In this document: piece after piece, positions 24,775-44,263 of the stretch | How positions within the stretch are numbered: the first letter of the stretch is position 1 | Layout of the letters: each line of letters starts with the position of its first letter | Origin: Mobula hypostoma | Lineage: Eukaryota | NCBI RefSeq assembly: GCF_963921235.1 | Contig: NC_086097.1 | Coordinates: 95,482,001-95,546,000, forward strand | Direction of reading: 5' to 3' | Length of the DNA stretch: 64,000 bases | Made by a program: the position numbers and the translations under genes | The notes under the pieces: model-generated | The model's database searches: none | The model's input: the letters and a program-made list of their open reading frames with translations, nothing else | Told to the model about the DNA's origin: nothing

Positions 24775-24872
24775 AACACTTACAACACACTGGAGGAACT
24801 CAGCAGGTCGGGCAGCATCCGTGGAAACGATGAGTCGACGTTTCGGGCCGGAACCTTTCGTCAGGATGCTTC
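24775..24872 (-). mobile_element. Solo PLE terminus (hammerhead unit) inserted in CR1, 8-bp TSD
   Basis: AAGGAAGC at 24767-24774 and 24873-24880. Minus strand reads CTGACGAAAGGTTCCGGCCCGAAACGTCGACTC. Confidence 0.75.
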
Positions 24873-26120: not shown

Positions 26121-26514
26121 ACACGCTGGAGGAACTCAGCAGGTCGGGCAGCATCCGTGGAAACGATCAGTCAACGTTTCAGGCCAGAACCCTTCATCGG
26201 GACTGAAGAGGGAAGGGGCAGAGGCCCTATAAAGAAGGTGGGGGAGGGTGGGAAGGAGAAAACGGGAAGATGCCAGGTGAAAAACCAGTAAAGGGAAAGA
26301 CAAAGGGGTGGGGGAGGGGAGGCAGGGAGGTGATAGGCAGGAAAGGTGAAGAAGGAATAGGGGAAAACACAATGGGTAGTAGAAGGAGGCGGAACCATGA
26401 GGGAGGTGATAGGCAGCTGGGGGAGGGGGCAGAGTGAAATAGGGATAGGGGAGGGAAGGGGAGGGAATTACCAGAAGCTGGAGAATTCTATGTTCATACC
26501 AAGGGGCTGGAGGC
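26121..26514 (-). mobile_element. PLE 3' end inserted in CR1, 13-bp TSD
   Basis: TGATATATTTACA at 26108-26120 and 26515-26527. Contains the terminus, purine-rich UTR and the end of the GIY-YIG ORF (LQPLGMNIEFSSFW*). Confidence 0.85.
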
Positions 26515-26782
26515 TGATATATTTACAGTGAATTTTGATAGGTTCTTGATTAGTAGGGCATCAAAGTTTACTGGGAGAAGGCAGGTTAATGGGATTAAGA
26601 ATGATAATAAATCAACCATGATGGAATTGAGAAGCCTAATTGATGGGCCAAATGGCCTAATTCTGCTCTTCTATGTTATGGTATTATGTCTTATTTTCTG
26701 AGTATGAAAAAACATGGGTCAGTAAGCATTACCCTCCCACCCAGATGGATGTGTTTTTTTACTGGTTTGTTTTCATCTACAA

Positions 26783-26990
26783 CAGTGGTTCACAACTTCC
26801 GGGCCGTGGTCCAATACTGCGCCGCGAAGCGTGCAGTGGTAGCCAGGACGCACCCAGTGCCGCCCGGCACCTAATTAATTAGCTTGTTTATTTCGGCTTT
26901 TTTCTTAAAGATGTGCTGGGTGCGTCCCAGCTACCACTGCACGTTTCACAGCCCAGTATTAGTCCACAGCCCGGAGGTTGGGGACCACTG
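26783..26990. mobile_element. hAT (Charlie-like) MITE, 208 bp
   Basis: TIRs CAGTGGTTCACAACTTCCGGGC / GCCCGGAGGTTGGGGACCACTG; 8-bp TSD ATCTACAA/CTCTACAA. Confidence 0.8.
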
Positions 26991-27256
26991 CTCTACAATC
27001 ATTAGCATTTCTGAAGCCGTGTTAATGTGATCTGATCCATCATAGCATTTCAATTTAATTGGTTATACTGCCTAAAGGGAAAAATATTGCAATCCTGGAA
27101 TCTATTTCATTTATATTTGTCATTGTCAAGCATCCGGAGGCCATTTATAAGCAGAGGAACAAAGCAATCACCAAAATCGGCACATTACAGGCAAGCAACA
27201 CACATCAAATTTGCTCGTGAACGCAGCAGGCCAGGCAGCATCTCTAGGAAGAGGTA

Positions 27257-27294
27257 CAGTCGACGTTTCAGGGCAAGACCCTTCATCAGGACTA
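27257..27294 (-). ncRNA. Minimal hammerhead ribozyme, left arm
   Basis: Minus strand TAGTC-CTGATGA-AGGGTCTTGCCCT-GAAA-CG-TC-GACTG; intact core. Confidence 0.75.
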
Positions 27295-27921
27295 ACTGAA
27301 GGAAGAGCTAGTAAGAGATTTGAAAGTGGGATGGGGAGGGGGAGATCCAAAATGATAGGAAAAGATAGAAGACAGGAGGGGGAGGGATGGAGCCAAGAGC
27401 TGGACGGGTGATTGGCAAAAGGGATATGAGAGGATCATGGGACAGGAGGCCCAGGGAGAAGGAAAAGGGGGAGGGGGGGAAAAACCCAGAGGATGGGCAA
27501 GGGGTATAGTCAGAGGGACAGAGGGAGAAAAAGGACAGAGAGAGAAAGAATGTGTGTATATAAATAAATAACGGACGGGGTACGAGGGGGAGGTGGGGCA
27601 TTAGCAGAAGTTAGAGAAGTCGATGTTCATGCCATCAGGTTGGAGGCTACCCAGATGGAATATAAGGTGTTGTTCCTCCAACCTGAGTGTGGCTTCATCT
27701 TTACAGTAGAGGGGGGCCATGGATAGACATATCAGAATGAGAATGGGATGTGGAATTAAAATGTGTGGCCACTGGGAGACCCTGCTTTCTCTGGTGGACA
27801 GAGCGTAGGTGTTCAGCAAAACGATCTCCCAGTCTGCGTCGGGTCTCGCCAATATATAAAAGGCCACATCGGGAGCACCGGACGCAGTATATCACACCAG
27901 CCGACTCACAGGTGAAGTGTC

Positions 27922-30636
27922 AGGTGGCGTTGCTGGTTAAAGATGAGATTAATGCAATAGAAAGGAAGGACATAAGCCGGGAAGATGTGGAATTGATATG
28001 GGTAGAACTGCATAACACTAAGGGGCAGAAAACGGTGGTGGGAGTTGTGTACAGGCCACCTAACAGTAGTAGTGAGGTCGGAGATGGTATTAAACAGGAA
28101 ATTAGAAATGTGTGCAATAAAGGAACAGCAGTTATAATGGGTGACTTCAATCTACATGTAGATTGGGTGAACCAAATTGGTAAAGGTGCTGAGGAAGAGG
28201 ATTTCTTGGAATGTATGCGGGATGGTTTTTTGAACCAACATGTCGAGGAACCAACTGGAGAGCAAGCTATTCTAGACTGGGTTTTGAGCAATGAGGAAGG
28301 GTTAATTAGCAATCTTGTCGTGAGAGGCCCCTTGGGTAAGAGTGACCATAATATGGTGGAATTCTTCATTAAGATGGAGAGTGACATAGTTAATTCAGAA
28401 ACAAAGGTTCTGAACTTAAAGAGGGGTAACTTTGAAGGTATGAGTCGTGAATTAGCTAAGATAGACTGGCAAATGATACTTAAAGGATTGACAGTGGATA
28501 TGCAATGGCAAGCATTTAAAGATTGCATGGATGAACTACAACAATTGTTCATCCCAGTTTGGCAAAAGAATAAATCAAGGAAGGTAGTGCACCCGTGGCT
28601 GACAAGAGAAATTAGGGATAGTATCAATTCCAAAGAAGAAGCATACAAATTAGCCAGAAAAAGTGGCTCACCGGAGGACTGGGAGAAATTCAGAGTTCAG
28701 CAGAGGAGGACAAAGGGCTTAATTAGGAAGGGGAAAAAAGATTATGAGAGAAAACTGGCAGGGAACATAAAAACTGACTGTAAAAGCTTTTATAGATATG
28801 TAAAAAGGAAAAGACTGGTAAAGACAAATGTAGGTCCCCTACGGACAGAAACAGGTGAATTGATTATGGGGAGCAAGGACATGGCAGACCAATTGAATAA
28901 TTACTTTGGTTCTGTCTTCACTAAGGAGGACATAAATAATCTTCCAGAAATAGTAGGGGACAGAGGGTCCAGTGAGATGGAGGAACTGAGCGAAATACAT
29001 GTTAGTAGGGAAGTGGTGTTAGGTGAATTGAAGGGATTAAAGGCAGATAAATCCCCAGGGCCAGATGGTCTGCATCCCAAAGTGCTTAAGGAAGTAGCCC
29101 AAGAAATAGTGGATACATTAGTGATAATTTTTCAAAACTCGTTAGATTCTGGACTAGTTCCTGAGGATTGGAGGGTGGCTAATGTAACCCCACTTTTTAA
29201 AAAAGGAGGGAGAGAGAAACCGGGGAATTATAGACCGGTTAGCCTAACGTCGGTGGTGGGGAAACTGCTGGAGTCAGTTATCAAAGATGTGATAACAGCA
29301 CATTTGGAAAGCAGTGAAATCATCGGACAAAGTCAGCATGGATTTGTGAAAGAAAAATCATGTCTGACGAATCTCATAGAATTTTTTGAGGATGTAACTA
29401 GTAGAGTGGATAGGGGAGAACCAGTGGATGTGGTATATTTGGATTTTCAAAAGGCTTTTGACAAGGTCCCACACAGGAGATTAGTGTGCAAACTTAAAGC
29501 ACACGGTATTTGGGGTAAGGTACTGATGTGGATAGAGAATTGGTTAGCAGACAGGAAGCAAAGAGTGGGAATAAACGGGACCTTTTCAGAATGGCAGGTG
29601 GTGACTAGTGGGGTACCGCAAGGCTCAGTGCTGGGACCCCAGTTGTTTACAATATATATTAATGACTTGGATGAGGGAATTAAATGCAACATCTCCAAGT
29701 TTGCGGATGACACGAAGCTGGGCGGCAGTGTTAGCTGTGAGGAGGATGCTAAGAGGATGCAAGGTGACTTGGATAGGTTGGGTGAGTGGGCAAATTCATG
29801 GCAGATGCAATTTACTGTGGATAAATGTGAAGTTATCCACTTTGGTGGCAAAAATAGGAAAACAGATTATTATCTGAACGGTGGCCGATTAGGAAAAGGG
29901 GAGGTGCAACGAGACCTGGGTGTCATTATACACCAGTCATTGAAAGTGGGCATGCAGGTACAGCAGGCGGTGAAAAAGGCGAATGGTATGCTGGCATTTG
30001 TAGCGAGAGGATTCGAGTACAGGAGCAGGGAGGTACTACTGCAGTTGTACAAGGCCTTGGTGAGACCACACCTGGAATATTGTGTGCAGTTTTGGTCCCC
30101 TAATCTGAGGAAAGACATCCTTGCCATAGAGGGAGTACAAAGAAGGTTCACCAGATTGATTCCTGGGATGGCAGGACTTTCATATGAAGAAAGACTGGAT
30201 GAACTGGGCTTGTACTCGTTGGAATTTAGAAGATTGAGGGGGGATCTGATTGAAACGTATAAAATCCTAAAGGGATTGGAGAGGCTAGATGCAGAAAGAT
30301 TGTTCCCAATGTTGGGGAAGTCCACAACAAGGGGTCACAGTTTAAGGATAAAGGGGAAGCCTTTTAGGACTGAGATTAGGAAAAACTTCTTCATACAGAG
30401 AGTGGTGAATCTGTGGAATTCTCTGCCACAGGAAACAGTTGAGGCCGGTTCATTGGCTATATTTAAGAGGGAGTTAGATATCGCCCTTGTGGCTACAGGG
30501 ATCGGGGGTATGGAGGGAAGGCTAGTGCAGGGTTCTGAGTTGGATGATCAGCCATGATCATAATAAATGGCAGTGCAGGCTCAAAGGGCCGAATGGCCTA
30601 CTCCTGCACCTATTTTCTATGTTTCTATGTTTCTAT
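27922..30636 (+). mobile_element. Young 5'-truncated CR1 LINE with open ORF2 (partial APE endonuclease plus RT)
   Basis: Uninterrupted frame to 30557 with GVVYRPP, MGDFN, SDHN, YRPVSLTS, LDFQKAFDKV, GVPQGSVLGP, KFADD. (TTTCTATG)n tail. TSD GTGTC at 27917-27921 and 30637-30641. Confidence 0.95.
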
Positions 30637-31102
30637 GTGTCGCCTCACCTGGAAGGACTGTCTGGGGCCCTGAATGGTGGTAAGGGAGGAAGTGTAAGGG
30701 CATGTGTAGCACTTGTTCCACTTACAAGGATAAGTGCCAGGAGGGAGATCAGTGGGGAGGGATGGGGGGACGAATGGACAAGGGAGTCACGTAGGGAGCA
30801 ATCCCTGCGGAAAGCAGAGAGAGAGGGGGAGGGAAAGATGTGCTTAGTGGTGGGATCCCGTTGGAGGTGGCGGAAATTACAGAGAATAATATGTTGGGCC
30901 CGGAGGCTGGTGGGGTGGTAGGTGAGGACCAGGGGAACCCTATTCCTAATGGGGTGACGGGAGGATGGAGTGAGAGCAGTTGTGCGTGAAATGAGAGAGA
31001 TGCGTTTGAGAGCAGAGTTGACGGTGGAGGAAAGGATTTTGTGCCCCTCACTCTCCCTTGACCATGACTCTGAGGCAATGCTGATAATGGAATTCCTTGT
31101 TC

Positions 31103-31828
31103 TGCTGGATATCACCATACATACTGTCTTTTTGCAATTAATAGATGACCCATTTTTGCACTTTCTTCAACAACTATATCAATTAAGTTTTACAGTTCTT
31201 CCTCCGTACTTGCAATTAACACAGTGTTATCTGCATATCTGAAATTATTGATGTTTTCACCACCAACTTTGATTCCCAAGATGTCTCTTATTTTTTGTAC
31301 TATTGTTTCACTGTACACATTAAACAAATCAGGGGAGAAAACATACTGTTGTCTATCTATCAATTGCAAAAAGACAGAATGTATGGTGATATCCAAAAAG
31401 AAAGAGAATCCAATCTGAAGGCTGAGAATAAACGGGGAAGACATAAAACAAGTACAGAACTTTTGCTACTTAGGAATCTGGGTGAAATCAGATGGCAGGT
31501 GCGAGATGGACATCAAAGAAGAACAGGGATGGCAAACGACACCTTTACGAGAATGAAGAGTATACTGACCAACACTAAACGAGGCATGACAACCCACCTC
31601 AGAGTACTGAAATGTTACGTTTATCCAGTTATGTAATATGGCTCAGAATGTTGGACAATATCTAGTAACATGAGGAAACGAATTGAAGCAGCAGAGATGT
31701 GGTTTTTGAGGAGGATGCAAAGAATATCATGGACAAAACGAATATCTAACGAGAATGTCATGAACAGAGCAAGCACAAAAAGAGAAATAATGTATCAGAT
31801 CATGAAAAGGCAACGTAACTTCATTGGA
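31103..31828. mobile_element. RTE-clade LINE fragment with 5' inversion
   Basis: Minus 31340-31103 encodes FSPDLFNVYSE...INNFRYADNTVLIAST. Plus 31351-31828 encodes LSINCKKTECMVIS...KRIEAAEMWFLRRMQRISWTKRISNENV. Confidence 0.85.
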
Positions 31829-33000
31829 AATACAAAATTCTCTGCGGATGCTGGGGTCAAAGCAACACGCACAACACGCTGGAGGAACTCAGCAGATCGG
31901 GCAGCATCCATAGAAATGAACAGTCAACGTTTTGGGCCAAAACCCTTCACCAGGACTGAAGAGGGAGGGGGCAGGGGCCCTATATAGGATAATGTGCTGG
32001 ATCCGGAGGCTGGTGGGGTGGTAGGTGAGGACAAGGGGAACTCTGTCCCTGTTGTGGTGACGGGAGGATGGGGAGAGGACCGAAGTGCGGGAAATGGAGG
32101 AGATGCGGGTGAGGGCATCATTGATGACGGCAGAAGGGAAACCACGATCCTTAAAGAAAGAGGTCATTTGAGATGTCCTGGAACGGAACGCCTCATCCTG
32201 GGAGCATATGTGGTGGAGACGGAGGAACTGGGAATAGGGAATAGCATTTTTGCATGTGGCAGGGTGGGAAGCGGTATAGTCGAGGTAGTTATGAGAGTCA
32301 GTGGGCTTATAGAAAATGTCAGTGGACAGTCTGTCTCCAGAGATGGAGGCCGAGAGATCGAGAAAGGGGAGCGAAGTGTCCGAGATGGACCAAGTGAATT
32401 TGAGGGCTGGGTGAAAGTTAGAAGTAAAATCGATGAAATTGACGAGCTCAGCATTAGTGCAGGAAGCAGCAACGATATAGTCGTCAATGTAGCGAAGGAG
32501 AAGTTGGGGAGCAGTACCAGTAAAGGTTTGGAGCATAGACTGTTCCACATAACCAACAAAGAGGCAGACAAAGCTGAGGCCCATGCGAGTGCCCATAGCT
32601 ACACCCTTGGTCTGAAGAAAGTGGGAAGAGCCAAAAGAGAAGTTATTAAGTGTGAGTACCAGTTCCACCAGCTGAAGGAGGGTAGTGGTGGTGGGGAACT
32701 GGTGAGGTCTATTGTCCAGAAAGTAGTGGAGGGCTTTGAGGACTTCTTGATGAGGAATGGAAGTGTATAAGGATTGGACATCCATAGTGAAAATGAAGCG
32801 GATGGGACCGGGGAACTGAAAGTCATTGAAGAGGTGGAGGGCATGGGATGTATCCCGGATGTAGGTGGGGTTTGATTTCCTTCTTCACCTTTCCTGCCTA
32901 TCCTATCCTCTCCTTGCTTCCCCTCCCCCACCCCATGATCTTTCCCCTTACTGGTTTTTCACCTGGAACCTACCAGTCTTCTCCTTCCCACCCTCATCCA
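31829..33000 (-). mobile_element. Second-subfamily PLE fragment (RT domain, internal deletion, inverted UTR piece at ~32873-33000)
   Basis: ORF 31889-32785: MDVQSLYTSIPH...QTKGVAMGTRMG...LRYIDD...LPFLDL...YKPT. The RT region joins directly to the terminus at ~31985. Confidence 0.9.
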
Positions 33001-33443
33001 TGTGCCCATCAAGAGTTTAATTGTTCCTACTGTGTCTGTCCTAAATTCAGTGACGGACGGGGTAGAAGCTATCCTCGAGCCTATTGGAAAGCGTTTTTGT
33101 GCTTTCCAATCTCCTGCCCGATGGGAGGGGGGGATAAGACAGAATATGGGAGAGGTCTTTGATTGTGCTGGCTGTTTTACTGAGGCAGTGAGAAATGCAG
33201 AAGAGTCCAAAGAGGAGAGGAAGATTTCTGTGATGTGCTCAGTTGTGTCCGTAACAACCTGCATTTTCCAGAAGTCACATGCTTGATCATGATGAGGTAG
33301 ATCGTGATGTCATTATGATCCAGTAACTGACCACAAGAAACTGCAGGCTGAGTGCAGTTCATCTGAGTGCAGACGGAGAGGCTAGTCTCCTTGAGGTGCT
33401 GAGCTGCTTCGTCAAGATTTTCTTAGAATTACGCACAAAATCT

Positions 33444-34280
33444 ATGGAGTTCTGCAAACTAAACAGGCGGGTGGTCCTTGGCCTGTCGATAGGCAGTGCT
33501 ACCATCATCATTGGCTGGTGGGCCTACCAGAATTTCGCCAAGAAGCGCCACCAAGCTGTGAAGGCCAAGCATGTAATCGGCACAGCTCAGCCAGTGGATT
33601 GCAAAGCGCAGTCCAAGGTTAGAAGCCAGAATATGGAGGAGGGGAGTATAGAATCAGGAGATGGAGGAAATGAGCAGGGGATCTCATCACAGGGACTGGC
33701 AGATCCAGGGCTAAGTCCTGAACCGGCTCCGGAAGATCGAGGGCTAAGTCCCGAACCGGCTCCGGAAGATCCAGGGCTAAGTCCCGAACCGGCTCCGGAA
33801 GATCCAGGGCTAAGTCCTGAACCGGCTCCGGAAGATCGAAGGCTAAGTCCCAAACCGGCTCCGGAAGATCGAGGGCTAGGTCCTGAACCGGCTCCGGAAG
33901 ATCGAGGGCTAAGTCCCAAACCAGCTCCGGAAGATCAAGGGTTCGGTCCCGAACCGGCTCCGGAAGATCCAGGGCTCGGTCCCGAACCGGCTCCGGAAGA
34001 TCGAGGGCTCGGTCCCGAACCGGCTCCGGAAGATCGAGGGCTTAGTCCCGAACCGGCTCCGGAAGATCGAGGGCTTAGTCCCGAACCGGCTCTGGAAGAT
34101 CGAGGGCCAAGTCCCGAACCGGCTCCGGAAGATCGAGGGCCTAGTCCCGAACCGGCTCTTGGGCATACCCAAACAGAGGCGACTGAACTGGAGCTGAGCC
34201 CAGTGGACGAACACTGGAATCGAGAGGATGAGGGGGAGGAAAATGGATGGGAGGGCAAAGGAACCATCAGAGATCAGTAG
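33444..34280 (+). CDS. Candidate first exon/ORF (278 aa): N-terminal signal anchor plus 14 x 11-aa Pro/Glu repeats; possibly pseudogenic
   Basis: MEFCKLNRR-VVLGLSIGSATIIIGWWAY-QNFAKKRH is a hydrophobic helix flanked by basic residues. An acidic disordered region follows. After the TAG at 34278-34280, exon-like purine-rich sequence continues to a possible donor AAG|GTAAAA at 34625/34626. Confidence 0.5.
   Translation: MEFCKLNRRVVLGLSIGSATIIIGWWAYQNFAKKRHQAVKAKHVIGTAQPVDCKAQSKVRSQNMEEGSIESGDGGNEQGISSQGLADPGLSPEPAPEDRGLSPEPAPEDPGLSPEPAPEDPGLSPEPAPEDRRLSPKPAPEDRGLGPEPAPEDRGLSPKPAPEDQGFGPEPAPEDPGLGPEPAPEDRGLGPEPAPEDRGLSPEPAPEDRGLSPEPALEDRGPSPEPAPEDRGPSPEPALGHTQTEATELELSPVDEHWNREDEGEENGWEGKGTIRDQ
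33702..34163 (+). repeat. 33-bp coding minisatellite, 14 units
   Basis: Unit GATC(C/G)AGGGCTAAGTCC(C/T)GAACCGGCTCCGGAA encodes D(P/R)GLSPEPAPE; 14 x 33 = 462 bp with no indels. Confidence 0.97.
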
Positions 34281-35762
34281 GAGCAGAAGGATGAAGAGAG
34301 GCTGGGGGGTGGGTCGGGTGACTTCACCAATGTGCAAGTGGGCATGAGGAGGGGAATAAAATTGGGCAAGAGAAAGAGCTCCCTGGAGGAGTCGGCTGGA
34401 GAGAGGAAGCGAATGAGAAAGTGGCAGACAAAACTCCAAAGGAGACAGCCAAGAGTAGGGCAGAGGATTGGAAGGGGACAACGCAGAGCTTGGAGAAGAG
34501 TTCTCAGATTTAGGGAACTGGTGCCTGAAGATGGGTCAAAGAAAGTAGGGAAATGGAAAGAGGAATCGTTTGATCCTGGAGGAAACACAGAAGTCTGGAT
34601 CCACAATCTTCTGAAGTCAATGAAGGTAAAAATAAATATATAGACACAATTGCCGTATCTTTTTTATATATAAAGGGGGCTGTGTTCCAAAGACTTTGGG
34701 GCACTGGAATATCCAAGTTGTAGAAGGCTACTGATCAAATGCTGATTTCTGGGGCTAGTATCGATGACATTATTGAAATGGTGGGTCAAAGGGCCTGTTC
34801 CTGCGCAGATCTCTCGATGACACGTCATGACCTCACAGATCCTTTGTTTACCTGCAGTCTCCCACCCACATTAATTATCTCACTCCCCTTGCCACTGGTA
34901 CGGCACAGTGGAGAAGCAGTTAGTGCGACGCTCCACAGGGCCAGTGATCTCCGATCAGGGTGCAGTTCCACTGCTCTATGTAAGGAGTTTGTACATTCTC
35001 CCCAAGACACCATGGAGTTCCTCCAAGTTCAGTTGAAAGCTTCCAATCTCCCCTCCCCCCACCCCGCCCTACTTCCCTCGTATCGATTGTGCAGAGGAGA
35101 TTCACCAGGATGCTGCCTGGGCTAGTTTAACCCAACCTCATGTAGTCTTATGAGGACAGGATGAGCACACAAGGGCTTTTCTCTTTGGAGTGAAGGACGG
35201 TGAGAGGGGACTTGAGAGAAGTGTACAAGGTCATAACAAACATAGATCGAGTGGATAGCCAGAGATATTTTCCCAGGGAGGGAATGGCAAATAGCAGGGA
35301 GTGTACACAGAGAGTGGTGTGTGTGGGGAACCACCCCGGGGGTTGTGGTAGAGGCAGATACATTAGGTACATTTAAGAAATACCTGTGCAGAGCACATGA
35401 ATGATAGAAAAAGGGAGTGTTCTATCTGGGGAAAGAGTTATATTGATCTTAGAACAGGTTAAAAGTTTGACACAATACTGTGGGCTGAAGGGCCTGTGGT
35501 GTGCTCTGGTGTTCTATCCCACTCATTGCAATACCTTCCCCTCTCCTACCCATTAACACCCTTCCTCTGTCCTCCACTGTTCTCCCCTACCTTCCTAACT
35601 CCTGACTACTTACCCCTGCCTCACCAGATCCTCACTCTCCACTTGTCTGTTCCATCACTCCTTCCCTCCCTTCCACTTCCCCTTCACTACCCACTCCCCC
35701 CACCCTCCACTTCCATTCTGCCATCTCTCCATCAGATGCGTCCTCTCCGTGTTCCTCCCAAG

Positions 35763-35927
35763 GCCTCAAGAATGACGACGATATTCAAGTCATGCTCAAG
35801 GGTACTCACATGCTGAAGATCAAATCCAGCTCATGGATGAAGTCACGCTACAACAAACTGAATGAAGACTGTTGGACGGTGCAGTATAATTCCAAAAAGA
35901 TCCTGAAGTCAGCCAGGAGCCAAATGT
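35763..35927 (+). pseudogene. Phospholipase C-delta-like PH-domain exon (orphan fragment)
   Basis: ccaag|GC CTC...ATG T|gtgagt, 165 bp, phase 1-1. It encodes (G)LKNDDDIQVMLKGTHMLKIKSSSWMKSRYNKLNEDCWTVQYNSKKILKSARSQM, a gapless match to recalled PLCD1 [55 protein letters not shown]. An alternative in-frame acceptor lies at 35736. Confidence 0.85.
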
Positions 35928-36231
35928 GTGAGTGTTGCTCAAGTCTTGGAGGGTTGGTGTGACAGCAAACGTAGTTTTAAAAAATTGTCTCGGGCACCAA
36001 CAAGTGCAGGGATTAGTTCTTGATTCCTGGTATGGCACCACGCTGAGGCCAGTAGAGTTACTGCTTCATGGCACCAGTGACCTGGATTCTATCTTTTATT
36101 GATTCTATTTTATTTGGAGAGTGCAGACAGATCCTTCTGGCCCAAAAGGCCACACCACCCAGCGGTCCACCTGTTTAACGCCAGACAAATCACAGGACAA
36201 CTCACCTGCCCTGCTGTGTTCCTCCAGCATT

Positions 36232-36292
<61 letters not shown>

Positions 36293-36306
36293 TCTGTGTG
36301 AGTGTG

Positions 36307-36338
<32 letters not shown>
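36232..36338. repeat. (TG)n microsatellite inside a PLE terminus
   Basis: TTCCTCCAGCATTG(TG)n...TTGCTC. A (CA)n run at 36673-36697 lies in the inverted partner terminus. Confidence 0.95.
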
Positions 36339-37319
36339 CTTTGCTCAGGAAAACAACTATCCAATTCATTCAGCATTCCACAGGGGGAAGAACTTTCAGA
36401 CAATATGACCCATATGTTGCAATAAGCTCCTCTCTTTCTCACCTCCTGGTCCATTTTCATTTCTCTGTTCATCCAGGTTTCCCATAAACATGACATGAGT
36501 CATATCCATCAAGCAGGAGCTACAGAAACCTGAAGCCCCACACCTCACAACCCTAATCTTTACAGTTTAGCAACACAATGATGCCTTTGCACAAGAGATT
36601 CTGCAGATGGTAGAACAACACACACAAAATGCAGAATGAACTCAGCAGGTCAGGCAGCATCCATAACTGTTTACACACACACACACACACACACACAGGC
36701 TGAGACCCGTCTGCAGGACTCAGCCTGATGGAGAATGTTAACCCTTTCATTCCTGGAATCATTCCCATGAACCTCCTCTGGGCCCTCTGAAAGGCCTTTG
36801 AGCATTTTAAATGTCACTGATTATCTGAAAATTGCTTCAGCGGATTTAGATTATTAAATTATTTTAATTTTGTTTAAGCATACTTCACAACATATTTAAG
36901 TGCTTGAAATTAAATAAAACAAAGAAAGATAAACAATCTACTGCCCGCATGTTTTCAGTTAAGATCAGTGACCACATTCGAATGAATGGGATCACAATAC
37001 ATACACCAGCTGTTGCTGGGGTAAGCTTGAGGGACCGGACACAAAGTGCATCCAGACCTTCAATAGGTCCAATGTGGAAGGTATGAGCTCAAGTTCATTC
37101 CCATCTGCTGTGTTGTCACACAGTTAGTCAATAATTCCCTTGGGAACTGTTGTCTGAAAGCTGGGTTGATTTCCAAGTCAGGATATTGGTGCTGGTATTT
37201 GTATTGGATTAATATTGTCACATGTACTGAGGTACAGTGAAAAGCTTGTCTTGCATACTGGTCATACGCATCAATTCATTACACAGTGCATTGGGGTAGA
37301 ATAAGGCAAAACAATAATG

Positions 37320-38304
37320 TTAGGATGTTGGGCTGTAGTATGATGGACTTCACTGTGCAGTTTGAGAAGGAGAAGCTAAAGTCTGATGTATCAGTATGAT
37401 AGTAGAGTAAGAGGAATTACAGAGGCATGAAAGGGGAGCTGGTCAAAGTTGACTGGAAGGGACACTGGCAGGAACAACACCAGAACAGCAATGGCTGCAG
37501 TTTCTGAGAGCAATTCGAAAGGGTAGATGCATCCCAAAGATGAAGAAGTATTTTAAAGGGAGGATGAGACAACTGTCACTGACAAGGGAAGTCAAACACA
37601 GCATAAAGACAAAAGAGAGAGTGCACACTATTTAGCAAAAGTTAGAGGGAAGTTAGAGGATTGGGAAACTTGAAAGCCAACAGATGCCAACTGAAAAAGC
37701 AATAAAGAGAGAAAAGATGAAATATCAATGTAAGCTAGCCAATAATGTTAAAAAAAAGCATACAAAAAGTTTTTTCAGATATGTGAAGAGTAAAAGAGGC
37801 AGGAGTGAATATTGGACCACTGGAAAATTATGCTAGAGAAGTAATAATGGAGGACAAAGAAATAGCAGATGAACTGAATAATTATTTTACATCAGTTTTC
37901 ACTGTGGAAGACACCAGCAGTTTGCCAGAAGTTCAAGAGTGTCGGGGGCAGAACTGAGTGTAGTTGCTATTACTAAGGAGGAGATGGTCGGGAAACTCAA
38001 AGTTCTGAAGGTCAATAAGACAACTGGACGAGATGGACTATACCCCAGGGTTCTGAACGAGGTAGCTGAAGAGATTGTGGAGGCATTGATAGTGATCTTT
38101 CAAGAATCAGGAGATTCTGAATAGTTCTGAAGGAAAAGAAAATTTCAAATTTCACTCCACTCTTTAAGATGGGAGGGAGGCAAAAGATGGGAAATTATAG
38201 GTCAGTTAGCCAGTGGTTGGGAAGATGTTGGAGTCCATTATTAAGGAGGAGGTTCCAATGTAACCAGAATCATACAATAACATCGGACTTCATTAAGGGA
38301 AAAT
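37320..38304 (+). mobile_element. CR1 ORF2 fragment, decayed
   Basis: GKLKVLKVNKTTGRDGLYPRVLNEVAEEIVEALIVIFQES; ends abruptly at ...AAGGGAAAAT where the PLE begins. Confidence 0.85.
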
Positions 38305-40296
38305 CCCAAGATCCACAAACCTGCCTGTCCAGGTAGACCCATTGTCTCAGCTTGCTCCTGCCCCACTGAACTCATTTTTGCATACCTCAACACTATTTTA
38401 TCCCCCCTTGTTCAATCCCTTCCTACCTCTGTTGGTGACACTTCTCATTCTCTGAAATTTTTCGATGATTTTAAGTTACCTGGCCACCACCGCTTTATTT
38501 TCACCTTGGATGTCCAGTCCCTTAATACTTCCATCCCCCAGCAGGAAGGTCTCAAAGCTCTCCGCTTCTTTTTGGATTATAGACCTAACCAGTTCCCCTC
38601 TACCACCACTTTGCTCCATCTAGCTGAATTAGTCCTTACTCTTAATAATTTCTCCTTTGGCTCCTCCCATTTCCTCCAGACTAAAGGTGTAGCTATGGGC
38701 ACCCGTATGGGTCCCAGCTATGCCTGCCTTTTTGTTGGCTTTGCGGAACAATCCATGTTCCAAACCTATACTGATATCTGTCCCCCACTTTTCCTTCGCT
38801 ACATCGACGACTGCATTGGCGCTGCTTCCGGCACGCATGCTGAGCTTGTTGACTTCATTAACTTTGCCTCCAACTTTCACCCTGCCCTCAAGTTTACCTA
38901 GTCCATTTCCGACACTCCCTCCTATCTCTAGATCTTTCTGTCTCTATCTCCGGAGACAGCTTATCTACTGATGTCTACTATAAGCCTACTGACTCTTACA
39001 GTTATCTGGACTATTCCTCTTCTCACCCTGTCTCTTGCAAAAATGCTATCCCCTTCTTGCAATTCCTCGTTCTCCGCCACATCTGCTCTCAGGATGAGGC
39101 TTTTCATTCCAGGTCGAGGGAGATGTCCTCCTTTTTTAAAGAAAGGGGCTTCCCATCCTCCACCATCAACTCTGCTCTCAAACGCATCTCCCCCATTTCA
39201 CGCAATCTGCTCTCACTCCACCCTCCCGCCACCCCACTAGGAATAGAGTTCCCCTTGTCCTCACCTACCAAACCTCCAGCCTCCGGGTCCAACATATTAT
39301 TCTCCGTAACTTCCGCCACCTCTAATGGGATCCCACCACTAAGCACAACATCTTTTCCTCCCCCCCTCTGCTTTCCGCAGGGATCACTCCCTACGCGACT
39401 CTCTTGTCCATTCGTTCCCCCCATCCCTCCCCACTGATCTCCCTCCTGGCACTTATCCTTGTAAGCGGAACAAGTGCTACACATGCCCTTACACTTCCTC
39501 CCTTACCACCATTCAGGGCCCCAGACAGTCCTTCCAGGTGAGGCAACGCTTCACCTGTGAGTCGGCTGGGGCGATATACTGCGTCCGGTGCTCCCGATGT
39601 GGCCTTCTATATATTGGCAAGACCCGACGCAGACTGGGAGATCATTTTGCTGAACACCTACGCTCTGTCCACCAGAGAAAGCAGGATCTCCCAGTGGCCA
39701 CACATTTTAATTCCACATCCCATTCCCATTCTGATATGTCTATCCACGGCCTCCTCTACTGTAAAGATGAAGCCACACTCAGGTTGGAGGAACAACACCT
39801 TATATTCCATCTGCATAGCCTCCAACCTGATGGCATGAACATTGACTTCTCTAACTTCTGCTAATGCCCCACCTCCTCCTCGTACCCCATCCATTATTTA
39901 TTTATATACACACATTCTTTCTCTCTCTCTCTCTCCTTTTTCTCCCTCAGTCCCTCTGACTATACCCCTTGCCCATCCTCTGGGTTTTTCCCCCCCCCTC
40001 CCCCTTTTCCTTCTCCCTGGGCCTCCTGTCCCATGATCCTCTCATATCCCTTTTGCCAATCACCCATCCAGCTCTTGGCTCCATCCCTGCCCCTCCTATC
40101 TTCTCCTATCATTTTGGATCTCCCCCTCCCCCCTCAAATCTCTTACTAGCTCTTCCTTCAGTTAGTCCTGACGAAGGGTCTCGGCCCGAAACGTCGACTG
40201 CACCTCTTCCTAGAGATGCTGCGTAGCCTGCTGCCTTCACCAGCAACCTTATGTGTGTTGCTTGAATTTCCAGCATCTGCAGAATTCCTCGTGTTT
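38305..40296 (+). mobile_element. Penelope-like element, right arm (RT, GIY-YIG, 3' UTR, terminus), disrupted
   Basis: PKIHKPACPGRPIVS...DVQSLNTSIP...GVAMGTRMGPSYA...LRYIDD, stop at 38899-38901, then IYCVRCSRCGLLYIGKTRRRLGDHFAEH. Ends CCTCGTGTTT. Confidence 0.93.
40163..40200 (+). ncRNA. Minimal hammerhead ribozyme, right arm
   Basis: TAGTC-CTGACGA-AGGGTCTCGGCCC-GAAA-CG-TC-GACTG; stem II GGG/CCC; predicted cleavage after C40195. Confidence 0.8.
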
Positions 40297-43057
40297 ACAT
40301 TACAGGCAAGGGCTGGTAAGTGGAAAGCAAGAGACAGGCAATAACCATCTCCAATAAGAGAGCAGTTCTAACTGCCTATCCTTGACACTTAATAACATTA
40401 TAATTGTTCGAGAATCAATTATCCAAGTAATGAACTTGCACTTCTTCCAGTCTAGCGTATTGCCCAATGTGTCTCTTCTACAGCAAAGAAACCAAACACA
40501 GATCAGCTGAGAGCTTTGTTGATCAATTATTTTCAATCTACAGGGGCAACTTGAATCTCCCTATTGCATCCCACTTTTAATTGGCTATCTTATTCCTAAC
40601 TTATCTATCCTTGGTCTCCTGCAATGTTATAACGATGCCCAGCGCCCTATCACATCTTCCATCCTGGGATGCTGCAGCCTTCCAGGCTCAAAATTGAATT
40701 CCCCAACCTCACATAACTTGCATTCTTTGTCACAAGCAATCTCTGCAACCAGTCATCTACCTCTGACGTTGGCTAGTCCTTTTTCTCCCCATCTCCTGGG
40801 CATTTGTCATTAACTTGGATTATGTAACACTGGTTGTTTTCTCTGCAGCTTCACTCTCTGTCTGCCCTCATTTCAAAGTTTAGTTCATTTTCTCTCCAAC
40901 TCACCTCCCCATCAACCAGATGACCTCTGCAACATCTCCACTGCAACTCCACCTCATCAAAGATATTCCCTTTGTCCTGTCTATTCCTCCCACAGCCTCT
41001 CTGTAACTTAAAACCAAGCTGTCTTCTCTCATCAACCTGAAATATAAACTCTATTTCTTTCTCCAAAGATGTTTCACCGACCTACTAAGTAAGTTTTCTC
41101 TGTAATTTGTTTCTATTGGAAATACACTGCCATTCTTTAATGCGATTCTCTAACCCTTGAACTCCTCCTTCAACAGCATTGTCAGGGTTTCTTCACCATA
41201 GAATCAGAATCAGGTTTATTATCACCAGCATGTGTCGTGAAATTGTTAACCATAGGACTGCAACACTTCAAGGCAGCAGATAAATACCAACATCCTAAGG
41301 GAAATCAGGGATTGGCAATAAATGTCAGCTTCACCATTGGCACCCTTATCCCCAAAGCAGTGAATTTAAAAACATTCAAAATAATGATTATCTAGAAAGT
41401 ACCGCATCAAAGCCATAGAGCAAAGTAAAAACAATCTCTACCGAGGGAGTCTAATAATGGCCAAAATTATTCTGACAAGATCAGTCTGGCTAAGCATTCA
41501 AATTAAGATTGAGATTACCCCAATGTTTTCCAAAGGTAAGAAGAGATTTTAAAAAGTTGCCAAGTCAGAGCTTGCTGCTAATGTTCTGTGCAAAGAAAAT
41601 GAATCAAGGCATAACGAAGCCTGGTTCAGTTGCCCGGATACATTCAACATCTGCTGTCTACATAGTACAATTTAATATTAGTGTACTCAAACTTAGTGTT
41701 CAATCCAAACATTTTGCAAAATTAGTGGGAGGGAGACATTAATCAACTCATCTAGTCTGGATTCAAGCTGATGTCTCCATAGATCAGAATCTTAAGCCTG
41801 ATGGACGAACAGTCACAGGATTTGCAAGTCAAGATGCATTGCTCCAAAGAAAATGCATTTCCCTTATTAACCTATTCAAAAGTTTCTGACTGTGTACACC
41901 ATTTTTCTTTTGTTTGCAGGCTTCTCCAGTAGATGCTATGCGGGTAACTTTCATGGTAGTATAAGCACTCCTTCTAACTTACTTGCAGCAGTTTTTGGAG
42001 CAACAACCTCAGAAAATGAAGTAAATTTGAAATACATCCAAATTCTGACAACTCACCATGTGTTTAATACTTTACTATTATATGGCACCCTTAATGTACA
42101 AACTCCAAAAATAAGTAATGGCTTCTATTAGACTTCTCCTTTTTCACAGAAATGTTTTTTTAGCTCATTTGCCAAAGCTACAATGGCAAATTCAATTTGA
42201 AACAACTACAATTGTGCAAATTCCAGCTTTTAAACTCTTTCCATTAGAAATATGCTCTTGTAAATTGGTACAAGTCTATTTCAAGGTTGTAAAATGCCAT
42301 ATTTCCAGCACTCTACATAAGCAATTATTAAATCAGATTTTCCTAAATCAGTTTTTGTAGACACCTCCATTCAGTTTGAATTGTTTCCAAGGAAATGATT
42401 ATTGAGTCATAACTCCTCCAGTTTAATGTTCTATGAAGTGGCTGAAGGCAAGTTCCCCTCTCCTTTCCTTAAGATTTTAAGCCTGAACCCAGTTGCTACA
42501 AATTGTTTAGTGCCTCTAAAAAGTAACTTACTCAGTCAACTCAGAGAGCTGAATATTCTTTCTGGAGGAGTTGATATACAAAAGTTTAATAGCACGGCAA
42601 TGTGATGAACTCCTTAAGGCTTTTTTCTTCAAGGTGGAGCTCACAAGCAAGCCAGTTCAACCTGGCAAGATTGAATGGAACCAGGAACAATCAATGCATA
42701 GTGGAGTTGGGATAAGAATCAGTTACCTGGAGATGAGCAAAATTGAGAACGTTCATCTCAGAGGGGACTATCCAAGAAGATTTCCCAGTTCTGCCTGGTA
42801 TCCGCTCAAGAAGGCTCACTTCAAGACACACAGGAACAGGATTCCCAAAGACCTCCACAGATGAGCCTCATGGCCAAAGCAGCAGACAAAACATTAAGAT
42901 TATAGGTAGGGTGAATGTGGACATTTTTTTCTCTCTGGATGGTGAATCAAAAACTAGAGGATATAGGTTTAGATGAGAAGGGAGTTTAATAGGAACCTGA
43001 GGGGCAGCTTTTTCCACTCAGAGAGAGGTCAGCGTATAAAGTATAATGAGCTGCTGG

Positions 43058-44263
43058 AATCAGAATCAGGTTTATTATCACCGGCATGTGACGTGAAATT
43101 TGTTAACTTCGCAGCAGCAGTCCAATGCAATACATAATCTAGCAGAGAGGAAAAAATTGTAATGATAATAAATAAAGTAAAATAATAATAATAAATAAAC
43201 AAATAAATCAATTACATATATTGAATAGATCAAAAAACATGCAAAAACAGAAATACTGTACATTAAAAAAAGTGAGGTAGTGTCCAAAGATTTAATGTCC
43301 ATTTAGGAACCGATGGCAGAGGGGAAGAAGCTGTTCCTGAATCGCTGAGTGTGTGCCTTCAGGCTTCTGTACCTCCTACCTGATGGTAACAGTGAGAAAA
43401 GGGCATGCCCTGGGTGCTGGAGGTCCTTAATAATGGACGCTGCCTTTCTGAAACACTGCTCCCTAAAGGTGTCCTGGGTACTTTGTAGGCTCGTACCCAA
43501 GATGGAGCTGACTAGATTTACAACCTTCTGCAGCTTCTTTCGGTCCTGTGCAATAGCATCCCTCCGTATCAGACAGTGTTGCAGCCTGTCAGAATGCTCT
43601 CCATGGTACAACTATAGAAGGTTCTGAGTGTATTTGTTGACATGCCAAATCTCTTCAAACTCCTAATAAAGTATAGCTGCTGTCCTGCCTTCTTTATAAC
43701 TACATTGACAAGGTTCACACCCAGGAACTTGAAGCTGCTCACTCTCTCCACTTCTGATCTGGCATGTGTTCCTTCGTCTTACCCTTCCTGAAGTCTACAA
43801 ACAGCTCTTTCATCTTACTGATGTTGAGTGCCAGGTTGTTGTTGCAGCACCACTCCACTAGTTGGCATATCTCACTCCTGGATGCTCTCTCGTCGCCACC
43901 TGAGATTCTACCAACAATGGTTGTATCATCAGCAAATTTATAGATGGTATTTGAGCTATGCCTAGCCACACAGTCATGTGTATATAGAGAGTAGAGCAGT
44001 GGGCTAAGCACACAACCCTGAGGTGTGCCAGTGTTGATCATCAGCGAGGAGGATATGTTATCACCAATCCGCATAGATTGTGGTCTTCCAGTTAGGAAGT
44101 CGAGGATCCAATTGCAGACGGAGGTACAGAGGCCCAGGTTCTGCAACTTCTCAATCAGGATTGTGGGAATGATGGTATTAAATGCTGAGCTATAGTCGAT
44201 GAACAGCATCCTGACATAGCTGCTTGTGTTGTCCAGGTGGTCTCGAGCCATGTGGAGAGCCAT
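43058..44263 (-). mobile_element. Rex1/Babar-like LINE (RT and 3' end) nested in a CR1 3' fragment
   Basis: [18 protein letters not shown]...[20 protein letters not shown]...[10 protein letters not shown]; (GATTCT)n tail. CR1 sequence flanks both sides (~42890-43057 and ~44264-44380). Confidence 0.9.

What the first reader, a model, noticed from the sequence alone, without database searches (positions are those of the whole stretch)
27182..40310. 13-kb composite insertion: two outward-facing ribozyme-tipped Penelope arms, one 14-bp TSD, host-gene cargo
Seen: ACATTACAGGCAAG lies immediately left of a minus-strand PLE terminus (27182-27195) and immediately right of a plus-strand PLE terminus (40297-40310). 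Both arms are the same subfamily and share variants absent from the copy at 1-783 (RSVHQRK vs RSVRQRK, NFC* vs NFR*, 3' UTR details). Between them lie RTE, PLE and CR1 pieces and intron-containing gene sequence (PLC-delta exon, signal-anchor ORF). Established: PLEs produce inverted terminal structures and carry hammerheads. Inference: the block entered the RAD51B intron as one event, with both target strands joined to PLE 3' ends and several kb of foreign unspliced sequence captured between them. That would be a 'Pack-Penelope' route of exon shuffling. I cannot tell from one window whether the cargo arrived with the arms or later, or whether this is already described.
Basis: partly seen in the sequence, partly recalled or inferred. 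Interest (0 to 1): 0.92.

Follow-up and report, generated by a model that had tools for sequence, protein, structure and literature searches.

The report
Penelope fold-back insertion carrying copied host DNA
A 13-kb block inside a gene intron is one insertion made by a Penelope-like jumping element that also copied several kilobases of unspliced host sequence from a duplicated locus, a route of gene-fragment spread already reported in rotifers but seen here in a fish-like vertebrate genome.

Summary
ACATTACAGGCAAG occurs exactly twice in the window, directly outside two outward-facing 3' ends of one Penelope-like element (PLE) family. Both flanks are single-copy. A related species shares the right junction. 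In a more distant species a contig starts aligning exactly at the right repeat copy, which suggests an empty site.

Apart from one later nested LINE, the interior is not a pile of later insertions. It is a condensed four-segment copy of a multicopy unit carrying a PLC-delta-like exon and a conserved signal-anchor ORF. Paralogues lie at 94-98 Mb on the same chromosome and in 8-kb arrays on another contig.

The right arm is chimeric. Its last 1.1 kb plus a 36-nt tail is family-typical; upstream it carries donor-lineage variants at 11 of 13 diagnostic sites against 4 of 32 downstream. The switch coincides with the inner end of the left arm.

Best reading: one dual-primed PLE integration whose nascent strands switched onto donor templates. 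The rival is a fold-back insertion later repaired at its centre.

PLE capture of intron-containing host DNA is already published for a rotifer (PMC3846280). Two side-claims stay unverified: Rfam finds no hammerhead, and RAD51B was not confirmed.

The parts
27182..27195 (.). Left copy of the 14-bp target-site duplication, ACATTACAGGCAAG. Its last 4 bases (CAAG) also match the first bases of the PLE tail, giving priming microhomology.
   Evidence: The flank 27000-27195 is single-copy in the genome.
27196..27920 (-). Left PLE-A arm, outer part: 3' UTR with a hammerhead-like core at about 27259-27289, plus the C-terminal GIY-YIG region. It starts at the proximal (tail-less) 3' end.
27921..30636 (+). 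Later nested LINE with endonuclease and RT domains and a (CTATGTTT)n 3' end, bounded by GTGTC. It is absent from the sister locus and from the right arm.
   Evidence: Pfam: Exo_endo_phos_2 at 2e-9 and RVT_1 at 8.5e-33. Boundaries.
30637..31036 (-). Left PLE-A arm, inner part. It is 5'-truncated at the position equivalent to 39151 of the right arm.
31037..31040 (.). TTTT filler. It is templated neither by the PLE nor by the donor.
31041..31987 (+). Segment 2: a LINE-derived piece (weak RVT_1; clade not determined here) plus the 3' UTR of an older PLE-B on the minus strand (about 31828-31987).
   Evidence: Substitution divergence of 2.9-4.2% from 6 paralogues. Pfam E 0.01.
31986..32995 (-). Segment 3: PLE-B body (31986-32870) with a 935-bp internal deletion relative to the paralogues, followed by its inverted terminal fragment (32877-32995).
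   Evidence: RVT_1 at 1.2e-6.
32991..36739 (+). Segment 4, the 'cargo'. It holds the signal-anchor ORF (33444-34280), a 33-bp minisatellite (33701-34158), the PLC-delta-like PH exon (about 35759-35929), (TG)n (36231-36338) and a truncated minus-strand PLE 3' UTR (36616-36739).
36735..38304 (+). Segment 5a: low-copy sequence (36735-37335) followed by a LINE fragment (37336 to about 38258). It is contiguous with the PLE-A copy in paralogues R97, R980 and R981.
38305..39150 (+). Right arm, inner part: PLE-A of the donor (segmental-duplication) lineage.
   Evidence: 11 of 13 diagnostic sites carry the donor state. RVT_1 is weak.
39151..40260 (+). Right arm, outer part: family-typical PLE-A with a GIY-YIG region and a hammerhead-like core at about 40167-40198. 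This is the stretch that is inverted-repeated with the left arm.
   Evidence: Only 4 of 32 diagnostic sites carry the donor state.
40261..40296 (+). 36-nt PLE 'tail' (distal RT start site), present on this arm only.
   Evidence: The tail is present in 6 of 12 aligned 3' ends, the thirteenth row (R980) being cut off by a LINE. It is absent from R97, from the sister locus and from the left arm. Loose ends from 639 and 654 contigs stop at 40296 in two species.
40297..40310 (.). Right copy of the 14-bp target-site duplication.
   Evidence: The flank is single-copy. The organism C contig starts aligning exactly at 40297.

Best explanation
The block 27196-40296 is one lineage-specific insertion made by the endonuclease and reverse transcriptase of a Penelope-like element (called PLE-A here) at a staggered 14-bp cut in single-copy intronic DNA.

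Both 3'-OH ends primed DNA synthesis on PLE-A RNA:
- The bottom strand primed at the distal start site, giving the right arm with its 36-nt tail.
- The top strand primed at the proximal start site, helped by CAAG/CUUG microhomology, giving the tail-less left arm.

After about 1.1 kb both nascent strands left the PLE-A template at the same PLE coordinate (about 39151).
- The right strand continued, in homologous register, on a resident PLE-A copy embedded in a segmentally duplicated unit. It then ran on through that copy's upstream flank: segment 5a, a jump over 5-9 kb at an ATGTT microhomology, then the cargo with the PLC-delta-like exon and the signal-anchor ORF.
- The left strand added TTTT and continued on the same donor unit 468 bp further upstream: the LINE piece and PLE-B, skipping 935 bp.
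- The two strands were joined at 32991-32995.

Both halves are copies of the same donor strand. This is the geometry of twin priming on one sense transcript.

A LINE later landed in the left arm.

Shown: the TSD, the termini, the donor loci, the junction sequences and the chimeric right arm.
Inferred: that capture happened in the same episode as integration, and that the donor template was RNA.
For: 1. Insertion boundaries.
- The 14-bp TSD is exact and both flanks are single-copy.
- The two arm ends match the two known PLE termini. Of 13 aligned copies, R980 is cut off by a LINE; 6 of the other 12 have the tail and the rest end at ...GTGTTG.
- A published in-vitro study reports two RT start sites, with the tail lying between them (PMC11167929, passages).
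- TSDs of 13 and 12 bp were found in 2 of 12 other copies examined. The 3 loci fetched because they showed an adjoining inverted match all have abutting head-to-head arms.

2. Presence in other species.
- Organism B (flank divergence 1.8%) has a 960-nt contig covering 40274-41225, the same junction.
- Organism C (7.5%) has a 1295-nt contig that aligns from exactly 40297, with 367 further letters that are not on the arm. Variants at 26706 and 26718 carry the same depth pair (7.7 and 10.7).

3. Origin of the interior.
- The interior is collinear in blocks with paralogues at C1 93.96-98.13 Mb and C45. Substitution divergence in non-PLE parts is 0-4.2%.
- The paralogues extend beyond every internal breakpoint, so the window copy is the derived one.
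- The junctions at 32991 and 36739 are spanned only by the window itself (40 candidates scored in each).

4. Chimeric right arm.
- Donor-lineage states occur at 11 of 13 sites upstream of 39150 and at 4 of 32 downstream (Fisher p 8e-6).
- The donor copy R97 has no tail, so the outer arm was newly synthesised.

5. Ages cannot be told apart.
- The arms differ by 6.3%. The right inner arm differs from R97 by about 5.4%. R97 and R980 differ by 6.4-6.7% over the same regions.

6. Precedent.
- PLEs are reported to move intron-containing host DNA framed by their termini (PMC3846280).
Against: - No read or contig shown here spans the left junction or the internal junctions, and no long reads were available.
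- The empty site in organism C is inferred, not displayed as a joint.
- Both strands leaving PLE-A at the same coordinate is just what a pre-existing equal-armed fold-back broken at its centre would give.
- The internal junctions (TTTT filler; AG, about CCC, and ATGTT microhomologies) fit DNA repair synthesis as well as RT template jumps.
- Segment 5a's unique part is much closer to R97 (3 differences in 600 bp) than the cargo is (1.8-3.1%; Poisson p 8e-5). Either several donors or later gene conversion must be added.
- A second locus (C1:93,986,131-93,989,993) shares the left-arm/TTTT/segment-2 junction and the PLE-B deletion junction. The direction of descent is unresolved, and its position inside a paralogue is an unexplained coincidence.
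- The two arms are not clearly each other's closest relatives. They share 5 derived sites, against a maximum of 7 among the 78 pairs of the 13 copies compared.
Confidence: 0.55

Rival explanations
1. Two steps. First an ordinary equal-armed PLE-A fold-back insertion (about 2.2 kb, 14-bp TSD). Later the unstable palindrome broke at its centre. The right end, made of PLE-A sequence, invaded a homologous PLE-A copy in the duplicated locus 1.6 Mb away and copied flanking genomic DNA with microhomology-mediated template switches. It was then end-joined to the left end with TTTT.
For: - The lineage switch in the right arm (39080-39186) coincides with the inner end of the left arm at 39151.
- The switch is in homologous register.
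- All donor segments lie within about 19 kb of one paralogue. One is inverted and the junctions carry 2-5 bp microhomology.
- The cargo is unspliced genomic DNA.
- The closeness of segment 5a to R97 could mean a later date.
Against: - Both halves copy the same donor strand in the same direction. That is expected for two cDNAs on one RNA but awkward for two-ended repair (derived from the coordinates).
- Arm-to-arm and arm-to-donor divergences cannot be told apart.
- The other fold-backs examined have unequal arms: inner ends at 960 versus 301 and at 1205 versus 332.
- No intermediate allele was seen.
Confidence: 0.25
2. The composite already existed at a donor locus, bracketed by two outward-facing PLE-A copies. 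It was moved as a unit in trans (a true 'Pack-PLE'), and the locus at C1:93.99 Mb is the remnant of that donor.
For: - That locus has the same left arm, TTTT, segment 2 and PLE-B deletion junction at 92.6-94.6% identity. It ends at the PLE-A 3' terminus with different flanks.
- It lies about 1.4 kb from a paralogue of the cargo unit.
- The rotifer precedent proposes that terminal repeats are sufficient in cis (PMC3846280).
Against: - Beyond the position equivalent to 32870 that locus continues as the resident second PLE-B copy, not as the inverted terminal fragment plus cargo seen in the window.
- No locus spans the 32991 or 36739 junctions.
- The window's right arm has a newly made outer part with a tail.
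- The nearby plus-strand PLE-A at that locus belongs to another subfamily: 96% to the copy at window 1-602 and 89% to the arms.
Confidence: 0.1
3. Artefact or coincidence: a misassembled inverted PLE region, or two independent PLE insertions whose flanks happen to share 14 bases.
For: PLE tandem and inverted structures are known to disturb assemblies (PMC8557442, passage). No long read was laid here.
Against: - The right junction is present in contigs of two species.
- The window lies in a 256-Mb contig.
- The chance of the 14-mer at two set positions is 3.7e-9.
- Neither arm has a TSD of its own.
Confidence: 0.03

Closest known systems
[quoted passage not shown]
   Same: Host DNA with its introns is framed by PLE terminal sequences. 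One TSD surrounds the whole structure. The cargo belongs to a multicopy family. A tail is present on one side.
   Different: - The rotifer case has two direct pseudo-LTRs plus one inverted one, a 4-kb complete gene, an 8-bp TSD and a proven empty allele.
- Here there are only two inverted 1.1-2 kb arms, a 14-bp TSD and a roughly 7-kb mosaic of gene fragment plus old repeats.
- Here the donor loci are identified, and one arm changes lineage in register, which shows how the capture began.
Canonical PLE insertion architecture: an inverted 5'-truncated partner, a one-sided 30-40-nt tail and two internal RT start sites (PMC8557442 and PMC11167929, passages read)
   Same: Outward-facing 3' ends, a 36-nt tail on one arm only, a tail-less start on the other, 5' truncation and a TSD.
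   Different: Ordinary fold-backs in this genome have abutting arms with no foreign interior. Here 9.2 kb of non-family sequence lies between the family-typical arm parts.
L1 twin priming, 5' transduction and template-switch chimeras
   Same: Both target strands prime. An upstream RNA segment ends up inverted next to a downstream segment, with a small loss (468 bp) at the inversion point. Junctions show microhomology. Upstream flank is carried along with a resident element copy.
   Different: The enzyme is a GIY-YIG/RT PLE, not L1. Each primer first copied 1.1 kb of PLE RNA before switching. The inverted segment does not abut the TSD.
Pack-MULE and other Pack-TIR captures by DNA transposons (recalled; PMC8277862 seen only in a search listing)
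   Same: Gene fragments lie between inverted element ends, flanked by one TSD.
   Different: Those ends are terminal inverted repeats recognised by a transposase and moved as DNA. Here the ends are two retroelement 3' termini made by reverse transcription.

Membership tests
Endonuclease-containing Penelope-like element (the arms) | PLE-type reverse transcriptase | tested here: inconclusive
   RVT_1 scores E 9.8e-4 on the right arm and 1.2e-6 on PLE-B, both below Pfam's cut-off of 29.6 bits. No PLE-specific model was available.
Endonuclease-containing Penelope-like element (the arms) | C-terminal GIY-YIG endonuclease downstream of the RT on the same strand | tested here: inconclusive
   GIY-YIG scores E 9e-4 at 19.9 bits, against a cut-off of 22.6. 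The ...IYCV...YIGKT...R...EH motif is visible in ORF 39343-39864.
Endonuclease-containing Penelope-like element (the arms) | Hammerhead ribozyme motif in the terminal repeat | tested here: inconclusive
   Rfam found no hammerhead in 3 searches. The core CUGAUGA-stem-GAAAC-GUCGAC is visible in the left arm, and CUGACGA... in the right arm. That minimal PLE hammerheads escape the Rfam models is my recollection, not a test.
Endonuclease-containing Penelope-like element (the arms) | Optional 30-40-nt tail at one end | tested here: met
   A 36-nt tail lies on the right arm only. The same tail is in 6 of 12 aligned 3' ends, the thirteenth row (R980) being cut off by a LINE.
Endonuclease-containing Penelope-like element (the arms) | Inverted 5'-truncated partner copy and a TSD of variable length | tested here: met
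   The TSD is 14 bp here and 12-13 bp in two other copies.
PLE-mediated capture of host DNA (Arkhipova 2013 type) | Non-PLE host sequence framed by PLE termini, with one TSD around the whole structure | tested here: met
PLE-mediated capture of host DNA (Arkhipova 2013 type) | Empty site with a single copy of the TSD | tested here: inconclusive
   The organism C contig aligns from exactly 40297, leaving 367 letters unplaced. The same depth pair appears at 26706 and 26718, and the lengths fit (185+182+928=1295). No joint row was shown.
PLE-mediated capture of host DNA (Arkhipova 2013 type) | A donor or paralogues elsewhere, with cargo not spliced | tested here: met
   Paralogues were found. The ORF exon, intervening DNA and PH exon are retained collinearly.
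PLE-mediated capture of host DNA (Arkhipova 2013 type) | Cargo lies between two direct pseudo-LTRs | tested here: not met
   Only inverted arms of the PLE-A family are present. There is no direct pair.
Twin priming (L1 type) | An inverted upstream segment and a forward downstream segment of one template strand, with a small loss and microhomology at the join | tested here: met
   In R97 coordinates the order is 23547->26470 and then 23079->7317 on the other strand. 468 bp are lost and the join lies at 32991-32995.
Twin priming (L1 type) | The inverted segment abuts the TSD directly | tested here: not met
   The 1.1-kb left PLE arm and the TTTT filler intervene.
Pack-MULE-like DNA-transposon capture | Terminal inverted repeats of a DNA transposon | tested here: not met
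   The ends are retroelement 3' UTRs plus coding 3' parts, with RT/GIY-YIG remnants.

The most novel reading that the evidence does not exclude
In a vertebrate, PLE integration complexes capture kilobases of unspliced host-gene sequence. They do so by switching, in homologous register, from their own RNA onto resident PLE copies embedded in host transcripts. The resulting arm-plus-cargo units stay mobile: the locus at C1:93.99 Mb would be a daughter copy of the left half of this insertion. This would make PLEs an intron-retaining, RNA-templated exon-shuffling and gene-fragment amplification route in cartilaginous-fish-like genomes. It might also contribute to the spread of the unit bearing the PLC-delta-like exon.
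Probability: 0.25. Interest if true: 0.7.

Novelty: new variant of a known kind. Interest (0 to 1): 0.5.

Why it matters
PLE integration is the least understood retrotransposition mechanism. This single locus records several of its steps at once:
- both published RT start sites used on opposite strands;
- a 14-bp stagger;
- a template switch in homologous register into a resident copy;
- junctions with filler or microhomology.

It also extends PLE-mediated movement of intron-containing host DNA, so far documented in a rotifer, to a vertebrate-type genome where PLEs are very abundant. In such genomes retrocopy counts based on intron loss would miss these events.

On its own it is one old, decayed case and does not establish a general route.

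Tried and rejected
- **Rfam.** Searches for hammerheads on 24000-44000 at E<=0.1 and on each arm alone at E<=10 found none.

- **RNA-editing footprint.** I looked for an excess of A>G on the sense strand among substitutions private to the window copy, which would mark an RNA template. The opposite was found in the right half: T>C 12 against A>G 2, while the paralogues show 12 against 8. From memory, this is what transcription-associated asymmetry in a minus-strand gene would give, so it says nothing about the template.

- **Signal-anchor ORF.** A homologue search (residues 1-90, near lengths) returned 10 candidates and none was significant. Pfam was empty for that ORF and for the PH-exon ORF.

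- **TSD around the 93.99-Mb sister copy.** The best shared word was a 7-mer, so no TSD was found.

- **Element labels.** They remain weak: RVT_1 at E 0.01 for the 'RTE' piece and Transposase_22 at E 0.055 for the LINE that interrupts the sister copy.

- **Read laying.** No joint across 27196-40296 appeared among the 15 rows shown, with 18,370 rows hidden. No piece covering the left junction or the internal junctions was listed. Depth is dominated by repeats and was not used.

- **Rejected: gene conversion from the left arm onto the right arm as the sole cause of the chimerism.** The left arm has no tail to donate, and the donor copy R97 has none either.

- **Rejected: a transposon insertion in the paralogues as the cause of the 5-9 kb difference at 36739.** The extra DNA continues a PLE 3' UTR that is cut mid-motif in the window.

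Full report
**1. Observation**

The 14-mer ACATTACAGGCAAG has two perfect copies in the window, at 27182-27195 and 40297-40310. With up to 2 mismatches there are 4 matches, against 0.71 expected from shuffles, and 0 of 100 shuffles reach 4.

The left copy is followed by the reverse complement of a PLE 3' end. The right copy is preceded by a plus-strand PLE 3' end. The two arms pair as inverted repeats: 27211-27920 plus 30639-31036 against 39151-40246, at 86-98% per block.

Both arms encode RSVHQRK and end in SNFC*. The copy at window 1-783 has RSVRQRK and SNFR*.

The last 196 bp of the left flank and 904 bp of the right flank are single-copy in the 3.48-Gb assembly. Only 26773-26999 is a repeat, a small fold-back element. 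The duplication is therefore target DNA, not part of a repeat.

**2. The arms are canonical PLE termini**

I aligned 13 copies of this family. One row (R980) is cut off by a LINE. Of the other 12, six carry the same 33-36-nt extension after ...GTGTGTTG, and the rest stop there. The right arm has the extension (40261-40296). The left arm stops at ...GTTG plus CTTG, which is also the CAAG end of the target.

In two species, loose ends from 639 and 654 contigs stop at exactly 40296.

The literature describes PLE insertions with an adjoining inverted 5'-truncated copy and a one-sided 30-40-nt tail (PMC8557442, passages; PMC3846280, section 6). A purified PLE starts reverse transcription at two internal sites, with the tail between them (PMC11167929, passages).

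Pfam support for RT and GIY-YIG is weak and below cut-off. Rfam finds no hammerhead. Only the CUGAnGA...GAAAC core is visible.

Other copies show TSDs of 13 and 12 bp (2 of 12 copies examined). Three loci that I chose for having an adjoining inverted match all show abutting head-to-head arms.

**3. Other species**

The right flank is held by runs of organism A (the likely source), organism B (word share 0.60) and organism C (0.08).

Laid contigs show the following.
- B has a 960-nt contig covering 40274-41225 with 17 differences (1.8%). This is the same junction as in A.
- C has a 1295-nt contig whose last 928 letters align to 40297-41228 (7.5% differences). The alignment starts exactly at the first base of the right TSD copy, and 367 letters remain unplaced.
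- Variants at 26706 and 26718 in the left flank carry the same per-contig depth pair (7.7 and 10.7) as that contig. Their distance-to-end values point to a piece ending at 26776, which is where the small fold-back repeat begins.
- The sum 185+182+928 equals 1295. This fits a site in C that lacks both that repeat and the 13-kb block.

This is an inference. No joint row was displayed.

**4. What lies between the arms**

One piece is a later arrival. The LINE at 27921-30636 (endonuclease plus RT) is bounded by GTGTC. It is absent from the sister locus and from the right arm.

Everything else has close paralogues. The stretch 33000-37300 has 130 listed matches, with 12,039 first-look candidates of which 40 were scored. 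The best are five copies on the same chromosome at 93.97, 97.10 and 98.03-98.11 Mb, together with arrays on contig C45.

Local alignment against about 150 kb fetched from those loci divides the interior into four segments:
- segment 2 (31041-31987): a LINE piece plus the PLE-B 3' UTR;
- segment 3 (31986-32995): the PLE-B body plus its inverted terminal fragment;
- segment 4 (32991-36739): the cargo;
- segment 5 (36735-40260): low-copy DNA, a LINE fragment, then PLE-A.

Substitution-only divergence from the paralogues is 2.9-4.2% for segment 2, 1.8-3.4% for segment 4, and 0-3.5% for the non-PLE part of segment 5.

One examined unit of a C45 array, with a period of about 8 kb, has the same order: cargo, about 455 bp, segment 2, PLE-B.

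The cargo holds two coding features.
- A PH-domain exon matches PLC-delta1 at E 5e-14.
- An ORF has a signal-anchor-like start and PEPAPEDRGLS repeats. Its N-terminal 121 codons are nearly unchanged in 5 paralogues. Summed against the window copy there are 16 synonymous and 5 non-synonymous codon differences, and these comparisons are not independent.

**5. The window copy is the derived one**

- At 36739 the window reads ...GAGAATGTT|AACCC. Four paralogues carry 5.4-9.4 kb between these points, with ATGTT on both sides. The extra DNA continues a PLE 3' UTR motif that is cut in the window.
- At 31986/7 the window lacks 935 bp of PLE-B.
- At 32991 the inverted PLE-B terminal fragment is cut and joined to the start of the cargo.
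- At 31036-31041 the left arm is joined to segment 2 through TTTT, which neither partner templates.
- The junctions at 32991 and 36739 are spanned by no other locus.

**6. Geometry**

In the coordinates of paralogue R97 the window reads 23547->24494, then 25429->about 26470. It then changes strand and reads 23079->18950, then 10847->7317.

Suppose the left half was extended from the left TSD and the right half from the right TSD. Both are then copies of the same donor strand. That strand is the sense strand of the PLC-delta-like exon, of PLE-A and of PLE-B. A 468-bp stretch is lost between the two starting points. This is the geometry of twin priming on one transcript (recalled from the L1 literature).

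**7. The right arm is chimeric**

I took sites where R97 and R980 agree with each other but differ from the near-unanimous state of 9 genome-wide copies. At these sites the right arm has the donor state at 11 of 13 sites between 38331 and 39079. It has the donor state at only 4 of 32 sites between 39187 and 40187 (Fisher p 8e-6).

The switch interval contains 39151, the inner end of the left arm. The donor copy R97 ends without a tail, and the R980 and R981 copies are cut by a LINE.

So the outer 1.1 kb plus tail was newly made from family-typical RNA. The inner part, together with its upstream flank, came from the duplicated unit.

Gene conversion from the left arm cannot supply the tail.

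**8. Dating**

Between paralogues, PLE parts diverge several times faster than the adjacent unique DNA. For R97 against R980 the figures are 1.2% in unique DNA and 6.7% in PLE-A.

On that scale three distances cannot be told apart:
- arm to arm, 6.3%;
- inner right arm to R97, 4.9-5.9%;
- R97 to R980, 6.4-6.7%.

The cargo-to-paralogue distance of 2-3% lies between the flank divergences to B (1.8%) and to C (7.5%). This agrees with presence in B and apparent absence in C.

One discordance remains. The unique 600 bp of segment 5a differ from R97 at only 3 positions. That requires a separate donor or a later gene conversion.

**9. The sister locus**

C1:93,986,131-93,989,993 carries a tail-less PLE-A arm, TTTT, segment 2, the same PLE-B deletion junction and PLE-B up to the position equivalent to 32325, at 92.6-94.6% identity. 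It has no nested LINE and its outer flanks differ from the window's.

After a 7.65-kb LINE-containing insertion, bounded by a 13-bp overlap, it continues to the position equivalent to 32870. From there it runs on as the resident second PLE-B copy of paralogue R93. No TSD was found.

The most economical reading is a daughter copy of the window's left half whose 5' end was resolved by homology with a resident PLE-B. Its landing inside a paralogue is unexplained and the direction of descent is not settled.

**10. Mechanism and rivals**

I favour one integration episode with dual priming and template switching (0.55). Within that, an RNA donor template is plausible but unproven.

The main rival (0.25) is an equal-armed fold-back that later broke at its centre and was repaired by copying from the paralogue. 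It explains the coincidence at 39151 very naturally.

A pre-assembled composite moved as a unit (0.1) and artefact or chance (0.03) are less likely.

**11. Comparison with what is known**

PLE mobilisation of intron-containing host DNA framed by PLE termini, with a TSD and an empty site, is published for Adineta vaga (PMC3846280). It is repeated in two later papers (PMC8557442 and PMC6431247, passages).

Two full-text searches found no paper describing such a capture in a vertebrate. The terms were Penelope-like, transduction, template switching and host gene, and then Penelope, retrotransposon, elasmobranch and gene capture. Subscription journals are not covered.

This case is therefore a new variant of a known kind. 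The new elements are the vertebrate-type genome, the inverted-only arms, the identified donors and a visible in-register switch.

Noticed in passing
window 26773-26999: A small fold-back (MITE- or SINE-like) repeat with 80-nt inverted arms. Many genomic copies exist, often in adjacent inverted pairs. The organism C contig piece ends at 26776, which suggests the element is absent there.
   Followed up: partly
G000:C45:49.53-49.60 Mb (L041), also 54.95-55.13 and 70.44-70.55 Mb: The unit bearing the PLC-delta-like exon (cargo, about 455 bp, LINE piece, PLE-B) is tandemly arrayed with a period of about 8 kb. All units share one orientation, so long read-through transcripts are conceivable.
   Followed up: partly
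window 33444-34280 and paralogues (L010, L014, L017, L021, L022): The ORF with a signal-anchor-like start and an 11-residue PEPAPEDRGLS repeat (33-bp minisatellite) is open in the window. Its N-terminal part is almost unchanged across 5 paralogues, with more synonymous than non-synonymous differences. It has no Pfam family and no database homologue.
   Followed up: partly
L025 (G000:C1:93,986,131-93,989,993): A sister copy of the left arm, TTTT, segment 2 and the PLE-B deletion junction. It ends at a PLE 3' terminus with other flanks and merges into a resident PLE-B. It may be a re-mobilised half of the composite.
   Followed up: partly
window 36735-40260 against L012/L013 and L018: Between segmental duplicates, the divergence rises from about 1% in unique DNA to 5-12% inside the PLE. 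The gradient is the same for paralogue-paralogue pairs. A cluster of C>T changes at 39909-39917 is shared by R97 and R980.
   Followed up: partly
window 32991-37924: Substitutions private to the window copy show T>C 12 against A>G 2 on the plus strand, whereas the paralogues show 12 against 8. This is compatible with residence in a gene transcribed from the minus strand.
   Followed up: no
G000:C1:95551992-95552135 (minus strand), 6 kb right of the window: A Rad51-family exon (Pfam PF08423 positions 30-77, E 4.7e-7).
   Followed up: no
window 27253/27269 joined to 40165 (table 5): Contigs of organisms A and B, but none of C, join these two points. Very short PLE fold-back copies of this subfamily are therefore multicopy in A and B.
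   Followed up: no
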